From positions 109,058,001 to 109,122,000 of the forward strand of contig OX597815.1 in the NCBI GenBank assembly GCA_951406725.2: a stretch of 64,000 bases of DNA, given 5' to 3'. Source of the stretch: Octopus vulgaris (Eukaryota). Positions 36,035 to 55,232 of the stretch are shown here, piece after piece (position 1 is the stretch's first letter; every line of letters starts with the position of its first letter). The notes under the pieces are model-generated. The model was not told where the DNA came from. It did not search any database and worked only from the letters and a program-made list of their open reading frames with translations. A program made the translations under genes and the position numbers.

Positions 36035-36157
36035 GATGTTTTTACTCCGGTAGATGTTATCTCGCTGGTTCGATAGTTCAATTACCAGTCCGCTGTCATA
36101 AACAAACCTGCAGGAAGACATCATATGGTACATATTCCTGGGAAAAGAAAAACGTTG
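36035..36157 (+). CDS. Gene B module exon 2: (G)[40 protein letters not shown]
   Basis: tttgtctttgtatcttccAG acceptor, G|GTATGT donor; 123 nt, phase 1-1. Confidence 0.88.
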
Positions 36158-37869
36158 GTATGTTAGAATATTATTTTACAATCTCTCTCTCTCTCTCTCT
36201 CTCTTCTCTCTCCCTCTCTCACTACCCCTTACTCTGTCTGCCTCATTCTGTCTCTCTGTATTCCCTCCCTCTTTCTCTCCCCCTCTCTTTTTCAATCTGT
36301 CTGTCTGTCTGTCTCTCTCTGTCTATTTTATCTATCTATCCGTCCTTCATTCTCCACCTCTTTTTCTCTCAAACTCTTTCTCTCCGTCTCTTGTTGGTTT
36401 AGGGAGTGACATCTGAAAAGAAGGAGGACTATTTTATTTAATATATGAAAATCAGAACGGGAACTGGAAGTTGCTCAGCTTTTTAATTCATTAAACATTC
36501 TTGTCTATATTCCATTTTAAAAGAATGTTGTTTATTATATGACTGCTCATTAGATGTGTCCTATGCATGCTCACATACGTACACACACAAACACACGCCA
36601 ATATATACATATATACAAAGAAAGAGAAAGTGAAAGAGACAGACAGAGAGACAGACAGAAAGAGACAGGTAGATAGATAGATAGATAGATAGATAGATCG
36701 ATAGATATATAGATAGATAGATAGATACATACATACATACATAAATAATACATACATACATACATACATACATACATACATACATACATACATACATACA
36801 TACATACATACATTTTGTATTGTAATTCGTAGCTGACCCCTGTTATATTCGGTTCACAAGCAAGTGGAAGAGTATTTATAAAGCAAGAGATATCCCTTGG
36901 AAAGTCGGCAGCTTATGTAGACTTTATTTGCTTGTATTACCCCGTCGTTGTGGAAATGACTATCTTAGCAAACTACGTCGAAGATAAAAGCTACAGAAAA
37001 GATCTTGCCTATTTCTAGAGTTTTCAGTATCCAGTCATAGGAAATATTGTCGGACGTTTAGGAAAACAATTCAGTTAATACTTAAGCTTGTCGAGGTGCG
37101 TGGCTTAGTGGTTAGGGTGTCAGCATCATGATCGTAAGAGTTTGGTTTCGATTCCTGCAACGGGCGACGCGTTGTGTTCTTCAGCAAAACGCTTCATTTC
37201 ACGTTGCTCCAGTTCACTCAGCTGGCAAAAATGAGTAACAAAAATGATGGACTGGCGTGAGTTTATTGCTAACATTCTTTTTGGCATTCAGCTTTGAAGT
37301 CAATATTTTCCTCACTCACCGCGACTGCGCATGAGTTTATTGCCAATATTGTGTTTCTGGCATTCACCTTTGAAGCTAATATTTTTCTCACTCGCCGCAG
37401 GTACTCTCTTTTTGTTTTTCCTTCATGCCGTGGCGTTGGATTCCATATACCTTGAGGCAGGTATTTGTAGCTAGATTGAGGTTCAATTACCTTCATTTCA
37501 CCAATCTATCTTCGTAAGCTTTCTATTTCTCATCACAATCGCAACACGTTATGAGAGTCCAAACTCCTTTTGAATATCATTGGATAAAATCTGCAGACTG
37601 GACTAAACTGTTCAGTTCTTCCACGATTATTTTTTTGTATAGCTTCAGGACGTCCATGAATAGCAAGCGGCCTAGTTTTCTCTTACCTCTTTTCGAGCTT
37701 TTTGCAGAAAGCTTTTTGCTTTGAAAGATCTTCGAAAATTTGCTTCGAAGAGAGCAAACATGAAAGATGGCCACGAAATGCAAGAGTAAGGAAGGCAGTA
37801 CGGCAATTTGCACGAGGACCTCCCCGTCCTCCACACCATGATTTGCAATAGATAGCGGGAAGTAAATAC

Positions 37870-38412
37870 AGAAGAAGAAAACGAAAAAGAAGAAGAAAAA
37901 GAAGAAGGAAAAAAGGAGAAGAAGAAGAAGAAGAAGAAGAAGAAGAAATGAAAGAAAAAGAAGGAAAAAAGGAGAAGAAGAAGAAGGAAAAAAAGGAGAA
38001 GAAGAAAGAAAGAAATGAAAGAAAAAGAAGGAGGAAAAAGGAGAAGAAGAAAAAGAAGGGAAAAAAGGAGAAGTAGAAGAAAGAAGGAAAGAAAGAAAGA
38101 AAAAGAAGAAGGAAAAAAGGAGAAGAAGTAGAAGAAGAAGAAGAAGAAGAAGTAGAAGAAGAAGAAGGAAAAAGAAGGGAAAAAAGGAGAAGAAGTAGAA
38201 GAAGAAGAAGAAGAAGAAGAAGAAGAAGAAGAAGAAGAAGAAGAAGAAGAAGAAGAAGGAAAAAGAAGGGAAAAAAGGAGACGAAGAAGAAGAAGAAAGA
38301 AAAAGAAGAAGTGGTAGAAGAAGAAGCAAAAACAGAAGAAGAAAAACTTAAAGAAGAAGAAGAAAAAGAAGAAAAAGTTGAAGAAGAGGAAGCAGAAGAA
38401 GAAGAAGAAGAA
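37870..38412. repeat. (GAA)n-rich purine tract
   Basis: Direct reading; paralogous tracts at 44565-44990 and 48511-48803. Confidence 0.95.
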
Positions 38413-38770
38413 AATGGTTTGGAAGCCTTTCTAGGGACGTCTCTCTCTGTAGTATTAATTAGCGATTAGGAACATCATTTTGGTTGCATGTGTGCATTGG
38501 GTGGGGCTAGTGGAGAAGAAAGCTGCGGAATCCTCCTTAGTCGTTTCCAGCTGGCGAACAGTATTTCCCGAATACTCCAATCTGGACATGGGCAAACAGC
38601 ATCGGATCATGCAAGCGAAATATATTGCTAATGCTTAGCAGTATTTCGTCTGTCTTTACGTTATGAGTTCAAATTCCGAAGAGGTCAACTTTGCCTTTCA
38701 TCCTTTCGGTGTCGAAAAACTCAGCACCTGTTGCGTACCGAGGTCAATCTAATCGACACACCCCTCCTAT

Positions 38771-39125
38771 ATTATTGCTTGTATGCACTTTTTCAAGATC
38801 AGTGACGAATAGTTACTGGAAAAAGGTTATTAATATTTGTATTGGGAACTCCTTTCATCAAAAACAGGTGATTGTCGTACGCTGATAACGGGTCAAGAAC
38901 CAGAAACTGCGGTCCGTGCGTATCACATAGTTGACGAGGGAAGGATGATCTCCCTTTGCAAATGACGAAAGGGCACAGAAAGTGTGCCTAAAGCCAGCTG
39001 GAGAAGATGTTCTCCTGGGGCTACAAGCTACAGTAACACCCACCCTTAGTGGTTAGCCATATAGAGATGGCAAATATACCTGTCGTGCAGTTACTGTTTA
39101 TACCTCGTTCAGTGATTTAGTATTG
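38771..39125 (+). mobile_element. Complete ~348-nt hammerhead monomer (retrozyme/pLTR-like), empty of LINE
   Basis: Begins attattg and ends agtattg (one circularly permuted unit); empty target ATCAAAAACAGGTG at 38857-38870; hammerhead 38876-38920 with mutated core CTGATAA. Confidence 0.8.
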
Positions 39126-52866: not shown

Positions 52867-52965
52867 AATTCTATGGAGTTGGCTCGACAATTAGTAAGAA
52901 ATGTTTTGATGGAACCTGCATTAGGACACAATATGGTAGATATATCTGGAAAAAGAAATATACTG
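52867..52965 (+). CDS. Gene B atypical module exon 6: (E)FYGVGSTISKKCFDGTCIRTQYGRYIWKKKYT (only 2 Cys)
   Basis: Weak acceptor atcttttctaaaAG; family-type donor G|GTATGTTA followed by the same post-exon intron; 99 nt, phase 1-1. Confidence 0.5.
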
Positions 52966-53512
52966 GTATGTTAAAATATTACTTTACACCGTCTCTCTCT
53001 GTCTTCCTCTCTCACTACCCCATCTCTCTTTCATATTCCTAATATAATTAGGAATATGAATCGTATTTTAACTTCTTGTTAATTTGTTTATCAAACCTTT
53101 TCTTTAATTATATTAATAACAAACTATATTTTTAATATTTTTTTTAATAGCAAATATTGCATTTTATCATATAAACCTTAACTTCACTATATTACTTCAA
53201 TGAGAAGTTCTAACTCACATAATTATATAAATTCCCAATTATGTTATTATCTCTCCCCTCCATCTTGTTCTTAAATGAATTCCGACTTTCGGTATAGAAG
53301 CTAACCTAATTAATATTAATTAGAAGCAATTTTTTAGTAAATCATGATATATTGAACTCTTTTTTATGTCCTTATTTTGTAAACATTGATGTACTCTCTC
53401 TCTCTCTCTCTCTCTCTGTCTATCTATCTATCTATCTATCTATCTATCTATCTATCTATCTATCTATCTATCTATCTATCTATAAATACATATTTGTCTT
53501 TGTAACTTCTAG

Positions 53513-53635
53513 GATGTCGTCTCTCTCATGCATGTTATCGCGCTGGTTCGAGAGTTGAAGGATCAAGACCCTGTTATACTCGAATTTGCATGAAGAAACC
53601 AGATGGTAGATATGAATGGAAAGATGAATCTATTG
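53513..53635 (+). CDS. Gene B module exon 7: (G)CRLSHACYRAGSRVEGSRPCYTRICMKKPDGRYEWKDESI
   Basis: tttgtctttgtaacttctAG acceptor, G|GTATGT donor; 123 nt open. Confidence 0.88.
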
Positions 53636-55109
53636 GTATGTTAGAATATTATTTTACAATCTCTCTCATTCTCTCTCTCCCTCTCTCACAACCCCTTCTT
53701 TTTCTGTCTGCCTCATTCTGTCTCTGTATGTATCACTTCTCTGTATTCCATCTCTCTCTCTCTCTTTCTCTCTCCCTCTCTCACTACCCCTTATTCTGTC
53801 TGCCTCATTCTGTCTCTCTGTATGTATCACTTCTCTGTATTCCCTCTCTGTTTCTCTCCCCTCTTTCTCTCTCTCTCTCTCTCTCTCTCTCTCTCTTATC
53901 TATCTATCCTTCTTTCATCCTCCACATTTTTTTCTCTCAAACTCTTTCTCTCCGTCTCTTGTTGGTTTAGGGAGTGACATCTGGAAAGAAGGAGGACTAT
54001 TTTATTTAATAAATGAAAATCAGAACGGGAACTGGCAGTTGCTCAGCTTTTTATATCATTAAACATTCTTGTCTATATTCCATTGTAAAAGAATGTTGTT
54101 TATTATATGACTGCTCATCATAGGTGTCCTATGCACGCTCACATACGTACACACACAAACACACGCCAATATATACATATATACAAAGAAAGAGAAGGTG
54201 AAAGAGACAGACCGACGGACAGACAGAAAGAGAAGTTTTCCCTGTGGTTGACTTTCACGAACAACTGAGTGTATATGTGTATGTGTGCATACGGTGGCGT
54301 CAGGATGTATGCATGCACACTGTGTGTCTGTGTCAGCTAATGAATGTGTACGTGTATCGATTGCTGCATATTTGAATATGACAACCAGCAAGTGATGAGT
54401 TAACTTTCAGTGCAACTTTGAATTATCAAAATATGTTTTTACAAATTCAGATATCCAGTTCGATCACGCTTACAAATTCAGATAACCAGTTCGATCACTC
54501 TTACACACACACACACACACACACACACACACACTCTGTCTCTCTCCCTTTCCCTCTATCTCTTTCCTTTATTTTTCTTCCTCTACCTCTTTTTCTCTTT
54601 ACCACTTTATCTCTCACCTCTTCAAACTCGATGTTGCCTGAACAGGTACACGATGTACCGCGTATCAGGCGTCGAGGCGGATGCGGAGCAACGTGAAATG
54701 AAGTGTTTTACTTAAGAGCACTACGCATCATGTGATCTAGGAACTGAAATCATGATGTTATGACTGCTAGGCCATTAGTCCTCACCACATATATATAATG
54801 TATATTGGTTTGAAATTTTAGAACGAGATTTAGGTCGAATATATTGAGCTCTGTTGTTAACTAGTACTTATTTTATTGACCTCGAAATAATGAAGGGCTC
54901 AGTCAACTTTGGTGGAGTTTACATATATACATATATATATATATGTGTGTGTGTGTGTGTGTGTGTGTGTGTGTGTGTGTGTGTGTGTGTGTGTGTGTGT
55001 GTGTGTGTGTGTGTGTGTGTGTGTGTGTGTGTGTGTGTGTGTGTGTGTGTGTGTGTGTCTGCGTATGAATGTGCAACTATAAATACATATTTGTCTTTGT
55101 AACTTCTAG

Positions 55110-55232
55110 GATGTCTTCACTCTCGTACATGTTATGCCCCTGGTTCGAGAGTTAACGGATCAAGACCCTGTCATACTCGAATTTGCACGAAGAAATCAGA
55201 TGGTAGATATGGCTGGAAAGATGAATATTATG
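55110..55232 (+). CDS. Gene B module exon 8: (G)CLHSRTCYAPGSRVNGSRPCHTRICTKKSDGRYGWKDEYY
   Basis: Same acceptor and donor as 53513; 123 nt open. Confidence 0.88.

What the first reader, a model, noticed from the sequence alone, without database searches (positions are those of the whole stretch)
36035..55232. Exons evolve much faster than their introns, and only by amino-acid changes
Counted by eye. 36035 vs 41056: 19/123 nt differ (~15%) in 14 codons, all amino-acid changing, while ~280 nt of the following intron (36812-37090 vs 41800-42078) differ at only 7 sites (~2.5%). 53513 vs 55110: 17 nt in 13 codons, all non-synonymous. 41056 vs 42732: 7 nt in 6 codons, all non-synonymous. The Cys codons stay TGT,TGT,TGT,TGC in all six 123-nt exons. 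Exon-faster-than-intron divergence on a fixed Cys scaffold is established for conotoxins, snake toxins and recognition proteins. It suggests a diversifying venom, immune or gamete-recognition system (inference).
Basis: partly seen in the sequence, partly recalled or inferred. Interest (0 to 1): 0.9.

Follow-up and report, generated by a model that had tools for sequence, protein, structure and literature searches.

The report
Octopus secreted protein with diversifying exons
A misannotated octopus gene for a likely secreted binding protein copied one small cysteine-rich exon six times, and the copies changed almost only in their amino acids, the mark of an arms race, likely against microbes or parasites, though its tissue and target are untested.

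Summary
Across the six exons dN/dS is about 8-9 (M0) and M1a vs M2a gives p=3e-8. Synonymous sites are no more diverged than the introns, so the signal is positive selection, not intron homogenisation, although some intron conversion occurred. The exons are phase-1 modules of the third gene in a three-gene Octopus cluster: signal peptide, linker, one A module, six copied B modules, terminal Cys exon. One public run shows the linker-A-B1 exons spliced. The module is predicted to fold like a fibronectin type I / VWC N-terminal finger. It belongs to an uncharacterised pan-molluscan repeat family. Tissue and ligand are unknown. Venom is the weaker guess: a salivary proteome table did not name the family (file cut). 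Verdict: real, a new variant of a known kind; interest 0.62.

The parts
18593..18660 (+). Gene 3 signal-peptide exon (ATG at 18600), homologous to the first coding exon of genes 1 and 2
   Evidence: tblastn and blastn hits, AG/GT sites; signal peptide judged by eye and by homology, no predictor run
21987..22034 (+). Gene 3 linker exon, 48 nt, one Cys
   Evidence: homology to gene 2 linker region; spliced to the next exon in run X9
32251..32361 (+). Gene 3 module A exon, 111 nt, phase 1-1, four Cys
   Evidence: covered edge to edge by X9 contigs whose loose ends match the neighbouring exons
36035..36157 (+). Module B1 exon
   Evidence: its first 28 nt follow exon A in an X9 contig
41056..41178 (+). 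Module B2 exon
   Evidence: AlphaFold2 model pLDDT 93.4
42732..42854 (+). Module B3 exon
46675..46797 (+). Module B4 exon
52867..52965 (+). Degenerate seventh B-type exon: 99 nt, open, phase 1-1, donor intact, 5' part and first two Cys lost; whether it is spliced in is unknown
53513..53635 (+). Module B5 exon
55110..55232 (+). Module B6 exon; the gene's terminal Cys-stop exon lies outside the window (L015:3098)
35839..58210 (+). Tandem duplication array: exon plus about 1.6-2.4 kb of flanking intron per unit, several ends lying in (TA)n, (TG)n and (GAA)n tracts
   Evidence: self-alignment; sequence
929..4384 (+). 3' end of paralogous gene 2 (LOC115232515-like): module exons 929-1048 and 1484-1597, terminal Cys-stop exon at 4377

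Best explanation
The six exons are tandem copies of one 40-residue, four-cysteine module in a spliced Octopus gene for a likely secreted protein, and they diverged by positive selection, likely because each module is a binding finger chasing a fast-changing foreign partner, most likely from microbes or parasites. Shown: the exon array, its recent origin (3-6% intron divergence), dN/dS of about 8-9 with invariant Cys, Gly, Val, Tyr and Trp, and splicing of linker-A-B1 in one run. Predicted: each module folds as an FnI/VWC-N finger (hairpin plus three-stranded sheet). Inferred: C1-C25 bonds within a module and C20 bonds to C7 of the next, giving a stapled rod of seven fingers. Inferred: the array arose by unequal crossing-over or slippage at flanking microsatellites, tolerated because all exons are phase 1-1, and it replaced the ancestral modules C-F, which this gene lacks or carries broken. 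Guessed: the partner and the tissue. My odds are 0.9 for positive selection, 0.85 for a secreted FnI-like binding protein, and about 0.4-0.45 for defence as the driver.
For: Selection. CpG-type transitions are only 2 of 19, 2 of 17 and 3 of 22 differences, so CpG decay is not the cause. Gene model. Splicing: X9 contigs cover 32250-32362 and nothing intronic; loose ends match the linker exon before and exon B1 behind. Fold: single module pLDDT 93.4; the 14 best VIA rows include 13 FnI, VWC or MSMB domains, top VWF C4 Z 5.0 rmsd 1.4 over 39 of 40 and fibronectin FnI Z 4.9; whole paralogue P0001 pLDDT 82.8, best hits FnI pairs (Foldseek E=1.4e-3; VIA Z 6.8, rmsd 4.4, 82 aligned). Disulfide register: first modules of P0012, P0013, P0014, P0020, P0025 lack the C7 slot; last modules of P0012, P0014, P0021, P0025 end in CxC...C like FnI. 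Defence hint: a scallop homologue carries an apextrin C-terminal domain (E=1.7e-50; its role in pattern recognition is recalled); fold relatives include a tick complement inhibitor and MSMB. An older internal duplicate in gene 1 also has pN 0.27 > pS 0.12 (no test run).
Against: No tissue, ligand or activity is known. Expression rests on 1 of 4 runs laid, of coded organism B and of unrecorded library type; only the first B exon's junction was seen, so use of B2-B6 is inferred from conservation. Octopus skin-mucus and ink proteome supplements gave no hit for the family's accessions (the mucus file was cut). Z-scores of 4-7 are in the range the tool calls common, and a shared fold shows no function. 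No Pfam family reaches its cut-off for any octopus member. Only six 40-codon sequences were tested, with my own codon-model code and a tree chosen under M0; exon site patterns conflict, and recombination can inflate site-model tests (recalled). The last ancestral module exon is broken in this assembly.
Confidence: 0.42

Rival explanations
1. Same protein and same selection, but the driver is reproduction: a seminal, spermatophore or oviducal secretion evolving under sperm competition or male-female conflict.
For: The fold resembles beta-microseminoprotein (Z 5.4, rmsd 1.6 over 45; Z 4.0); search listings show MSMB-type genes rapidly evolving in the marmoset male tract and in marsupial egg coats (PMC2746217, PMC3268785; titles and abstract starts only). 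Cover in 1 of 4 runs at word depth 25,000 would fit a gland-specific product (the tool warns that depth is a poor measure).
Against: No tissue data. The Cys pattern differs from the cuttlefish egg-case motif CX2GX2CCXGCCX8-9C (PMC4500399, passages). The supplement of an octopod seminal and spermathecal proteome could not be read.
Confidence: 0.27
2. A venom or saliva component whose fingers bind prey proteins.
For: Signal peptide, Cys scaffold, mostly basic modules (pI 8.5-9.5 in 5 of 6) and exon-faster-than-intron evolution are common in toxins (recalled). Pacifastin and unnamed short Cys-rich proteins occur in octopus posterior salivary glands (PMC7693380, passages).
Against: That paper's supplement holds 459 O. 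bimaculoides XP_01477 accessions but none of LOC1068698xx, XP_014771281 or four family motifs (one file, cut when stored). There is no propeptide, and no dibasic sites are conserved between modules.
Confidence: 0.18
3. A structural, adhesive or matrix protein (mucus, cement, cuticle) whose copied modules diversified to bind a matrix partner or to avoid misfolding between identical neighbours.
For: FnI modules bind collagen (3ejh); homologues are long repeat chains or VWA fusions; Mytilus members are labelled MIG-18-like.
Against: Omega of about 15 on three quarters of sites is far beyond what a stable self-partner predicts (inference). Limpet adhesive-mucus supplements and the Lottia shell-matrix main text did not name the homologues.
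Confidence: 0.08
4. No selection: introns were homogenised by gene conversion, or exons are mutation hot spots, so the contrast is an artefact.
For: Some conversion is visible: units 46675 and 55110 differ at 2 of 258 sites in one intron block and 26 of 412 in the next, p=2e-4. Between groups, path-averaged dS is 0.11-0.18 against about 0.055 in introns.
Against: dN/dS does not use introns. Synonymous sites track the intron rate in independent pairs; between groups only two codons differ purely synonymously. Neutral simulation gives P(no synonymous codon)=0.011 and 0.034 for the two larger pairs. No stop or Cys change in six exons.
Confidence: 0.05

Closest known systems
Fibronectin type I / MIG-18-like Fn1_2 (PF23003) repeat proteins of molluscs
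   Same: Predicted fold; language-model neighbours at 0.82-0.84, a lead only; of 17 HMMER hits at E<=0.001, 13 were new, 10 named as molluscan (Octopus, Patella, Lottia, Lymnaea, Biomphalaria, Ylistrum x2, Mytilus x2, Mizuhopecten), one unnamed likely member, two likely chance.
   Different: Repeat has C-x5-C-x10-12-C-x4-C rather than FnI's CxC; no member is characterised in the papers I could search; recent in-gene amplification under omega about 9 is seen only in this gene here.
Snake small serum proteins (SSP; MSMB/PSP94 family)
   Same: Tandem cluster of secreted Cys-rich binders with accelerated evolution, analysed as KA/KS against intron KN (PMC7150969, passages); N-terminal fold similar.
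   Different: SSPs are four-exon, ten-Cys, about 111-aa proteins diversified by whole-gene duplication; here single exons were copied inside one gene.
von Willebrand factor C domain (PF00093) and single-VWC proteins
   Same: The module superposes on the N-terminal subdomain of VWF C4 (Z 5.0, rmsd 1.4); 1 of 19 modules hits VWC at E=0.049.
   Different: No second subdomain and no 8-10 Cys pattern (pattern recalled).
Conotoxins and snake venom PLA2 (accelerated exon evolution)
   Same: Nonsynonymous excess on a fixed Cys frame with conserved introns (PLA2 statement; conotoxins recalled).
   Different: Multi-module chain, no propeptide, different fold, no evidence of venom-gland expression.
Rodent zonadhesin D3p repeats, abalone VERL, Dscam exon arrays (all recalled, not looked up)
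   Same: In-gene tandem exon or repeat expansion in recognition proteins.
   Different: VERL repeats are homogenised, these are pushed apart; mutually exclusive splicing as in Dscam is not shown here.

Membership tests
Fibronectin type I module (PF00039 / PF23003) | Two-stranded hairpin followed by three-stranded antiparallel sheet, about 40-45 aa | tested here: met
   AlphaFold2 models; FnI, VWC and MSMB domains fill 13 of the 14 best VIA rows, Z 3.1-5.0. Predicted, not solved.
Fibronectin type I module (PF00039 / PF23003) | Canonical C...CxC...C pattern (recalled) | tested here: not met
   Octopus modules are C-x5-C-x10-12-C-x4-C; only last modules of some molluscan homologues have CxC...C.
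Fibronectin type I module (PF00039 / PF23003) | Pfam hit above the curated cut-off | tested here: not met
   0 of 5 octopus proteins, 0 of 19 modules; 2 of 13 homologues hit Fn1_2 below the cut-off (20.9 and 18.7 bits vs 27).
VWC domain (PF00093) | Two subdomains with 8-10 Cys (recalled) | tested here: not met
   Four Cys per 40-aa module; only the N-terminal subdomain aligns.
MSMB/PSP94/SSP | Four-exon gene, ten conserved Cys, about 111 aa precursor | tested here: not met
   Definition from PMC7150969; gene model here has nine or more coding exons in the window and 30 Cys in the inferred mature chain.
Pacifastin inhibitor (PF05375) | Six-Cys motif with CxC and a C-T-x3-C reactive loop (recalled) | tested here: not met
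   Motif absent from 19 modules; no Pfam hit; atlas neighbour at 0.78 only.
Sepia egg case proteins (SepECP) | CX2GX2CCXGCCX8-9C motif, no repeated sequence | tested here: not met
   PMC4500399 passages against the alignment, compared by eye.
Cephalopod venom protein | Made in the posterior salivary gland and present in saliva | tested here: inconclusive
   No hit in one cut supplement file with a working positive control; tissue of run X9 is not given.
Positively selected gene region | dN/dS significantly above 1 | tested here: met
Dscam-type alternative exon array | Mutually exclusive or combinatorial use of the duplicated exons in mRNA | not tested
   Only the A-B1 junction was seen; annotated isoforms of genes 1 and 2 lack or exchange whole modules.

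The most novel reading that the evidence does not exclude
Octopus has built a variable recognition repertoire out of FnI-like fingers: the positively selected, frame-symmetric B exons are spliced in combinations and vary in number between animals, giving many binding proteins from one locus, a cephalopod counterpart to Dscam or FREP diversity on a scaffold never linked to it.
Probability: 0.17. Interest if true: 0.88.

Novelty: new variant of a known kind. Interest (0 to 1): 0.62.

Why it matters
It points to a strong, recent molecular arms race in Octopus at a gene that the public annotation misses: model CAI9717959.1 (P0006) joins gene 2 modules to gene 3's linker and reads exon B2 out of frame. 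It gives an uncharacterised pan-molluscan FnI-like repeat family its first functional clue: surfaces free to vary on a stapled frame. It is also a compact natural case of repeats inside one protein being driven apart rather than homogenised, with introns as a built-in clock. Tissue panels and long reads that already exist can test it directly.

Tried and rejected
Pfam: no family at cut-off for modules or octopus proteins. PDB by sequence: 2 chance hits, E 1.4 and 1.6. Short single-exon homologues of 19-70 aa: none. Search with P0004 found only gene 1 orthologues. Other family loci in the genome: no convincing hit outside the C2 cluster with P0002 or module B5 (lower bounds). Further modules between 55232 and the terminal exon: none by HMM, nhmmer, pattern or blastn except a 3' half exon at L015:~1008-1070. 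The look-up of sequencing runs: no RNA holder listed. X16, X18 and X19 laid nothing on exon A, which the tool says can be false. M7 did not converge (stuck at omega=1), so M7 vs M8 is not used; per-site posteriors are uninformative with six sequences. The module tree was mostly unresolved, 2 of 28 branches starred, so orthology of O. bimaculoides P0011 to gene 2 or 3 is not settled. Literature: no paper in the library names the family's accessions (0 each; one search was swamped by a numeric term and is uninformative); 'octopus + positive selection + tandem + exon duplication + secreted' gave 0; one search gave nothing relevant. Supplements without hits: PMC7693380 (cut), PMC10138644 (cut), PMC10142993, PMC12607849 (393 characters only), PMC7333891; none readable for PMC12691039; subscription papers and bioRxiv supplements were not searchable and may hold expression data. 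Earlier scan notes: none. A-to-I-like bias: A/G changes do not dominate the exon differences. Beta-propeller idea: dropped; models give FnI-type strands and propeller hits have rmsd near or above 30.
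Full report
Observation. The quoted intron block differs at 7 of 279 sites. Over 396-1766 alignable, microsatellite-masked intron sites per pair, divergence is 3.1-6.6%. Exon differences exceed the worst 123-column intron window in 14 of 15 pairs. The 41056/42732 pair alone is not significant.

Selection. With my own codon-model code on the best of 8 topologies tried, M0 gives omega 8.97 (F1x4) or 7.83 (F3x4), rejecting omega=1 at p=1.4e-6 and 5.5e-6. 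M1a vs M2a gives p=3.1e-8 and 2.2e-8, and M8a vs M8 p=4.1e-9; about 24% of sites sit at omega 0 and 76% at about 15-16. M7 did not converge and is not used. Three independent pairs pooled give 44/270 nonsynonymous vs 2/90 synonymous (p=1.1e-4), and synonymous vs intron 2/90 vs 142/3337 (p=0.59). CpG transitions are a small minority. Invariant sites are the four Cys, S4, G11, S12, V14, G31, Y33 and W35. Against a clean picture: intron conversion is evident for unit 55110 (2/258 vs 26/412 against unit 46675, p=2e-4), and exon site patterns conflict. So the exon-intron contrast between the two groups is probably somewhat inflated, but dN/dS within exons is independent of it.

What gene. The window lies on contig C2 (215,602,707 bases) of a 2.8-Gb genome. 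A profile of 19 modules found 7 proteins among 1422 candidates, six named Octopus; two O. vulgaris models lie on a contig of that same length. Across 264 kb there are three tandem paralogues. Gene 1 encodes P0001 (280 aa; O. sinensis LOC115222431 differs at 2 of 280 residues; O. bimaculoides 73% identical). Gene 2 matches LOC115232515 and ends in the window at 4377. Gene 3 holds the finding: signal exon 18593-18660, linker 21987-22034, module A 32251-32361, B1-B6, a degenerate B exon at 52867-52965 and a terminal Cys-stop exon at L015:3098. Genes 1 and 2 have six different modules each. In gene 3 I found no copies of gene 2's third to fifth modules, and the last module exon survives only as its 3' half. 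All coding exons are phase 1-1, so the frame survives any gain or skip. The public model P0006 is a chimera that reads B2 out of frame (read by eye), and no correct gene 3 protein appeared.

Expression. No run is on record as RNA. Of four runs laid on 32150-32450, X9 (coded organism B) covered 32250-32362 only. Its loose ends match the end of the linker exon and the start of B1, each with about one different letter. That is a spliced transcript of this gene or its orthologue. The other three runs showed nothing, which the tool says may be false. Tissue is not given, and B2-B6 junctions were not observed.

Fold and family. AlphaFold2 gives an all-beta chain for P0001 (pLDDT 82.8, pTM 0.52, 7 sequences) and a confident single module for B2 (93.4). 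Foldseek's best hits are fibronectin FnI models, none at E<=0.001. VIA ranks FnI pairs, MSMB3 and tick CirpT1 first for the chain, and VWF C4, FnI and MSMB3 first for the module (Z 4-5). These Z values are modest, but the hits agree with each other and cover the whole module. The Atlas independently lists MIG-18-like Fn1_2, VWC and pacifastin clusters, all under 0.9 and so leads only. HMMER over 1.84 billion representatives returned 17 hits: four known octopus rows and 13 new ones, ten named as molluscan repeat proteins, one with an apextrin C-terminal domain and one with VWA. Their first modules often lack the second Cys and their last modules often end like canonical FnI. From this I infer an inter-module disulfide and a stiff rod; I could not inspect model coordinates. 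O. bimaculoides P0011 shares only 8-22 identities per module with gene 2's corresponding modules, against mostly 27-31 for gene 1 orthologues (21 for one), so this branch of the cluster has been fast for longer (orthology unresolved).

Mechanism. Shown: recent tandem copying of exon plus intron, strong amino-acid diversification on a fixed frame, and splicing of the 5' part. Inferred: microsatellite-bounded unequal exchange made the copies; selection favoured new surfaces on each finger; the product is a secreted multivalent binder. FnI strings can bind extended peptides along their edge strand (collagen peptide in 3ejh; bacterial adhesins, recalled), and the end of that strand, with the loop at residues 13-17, is among the most variable parts here. 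I rank defence 0.42, reproduction 0.27, venom 0.18, matrix 0.08, artefact 0.05. The ranking among the first three is weak.

Literature seen. Passages: PMC7693380 (plus supplement search), PMC4500399, PMC7150969, PMC3374290. Supplement searches only: PMC10138644, PMC10142993, PMC12607849, PMC7333891. Listings only: PMC2746217, PMC3268785, PMC6609765. PMC12691039: listing only, supplement unreadable. Conotoxins, zonadhesin, VERL, Dscam, FREP, pacifastin and VWC motifs are recalled. Accession searches found no paper on this family.

Verdict. Real and well supported as positive selection on duplicated exons of a misannotated, spliced octopus gene. The evolutionary pattern is a known kind; the gene, the scaffold and the in-gene amplification are new as far as my searches reach. 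Interest 0.62.

Noticed in passing
window:26749-29765 (-): Retroelement-like remnant with a 647-codon and a 380-codon open stretch inside gene 3's linker-to-A intron; LINE-like by eye, not scanned.
   Followed up: no
window:48800-52700: Decayed retroelement-like sequence between B4 and the degenerate B exon; the degenerate exon lost its 5' part just downstream of it.
   Followed up: partly
window:1961-2852: About 207-bp inverted repeats at 80% identity around a decayed transposase-like stretch in a gene 2 intron; mariner-like by recall.
   Followed up: no
window:8844-9355 and 11325-11719: Long palindromic elements (71% and 88% self-complementary), MITE-like.
   Followed up: no
L016:~4930-5060: Relic of a last-module exon with no acceptor and a stop, downstream of gene 3's terminal exon; possibly a fourth, lost paralogue.
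   Followed up: partly
L006 and L005 (gene 1): Gene 1 has an older internal A-B duplication; its two A modules show pN 0.27 vs pS 0.12. Annotated isoforms drop one or two modules (P0003, P0005) or exchange one (P0004 vs P0010).
   Followed up: partly
window:61684-63801: A roughly 1.8-kb-spaced direct repeat near the window end (paired hits); no module exon in it.
   Followed up: no
P0016, P0022 (Ylistrum): The same repeat is fused to an apextrin C-terminal domain in one scallop protein and to a VWA domain in another.
   Followed up: partly
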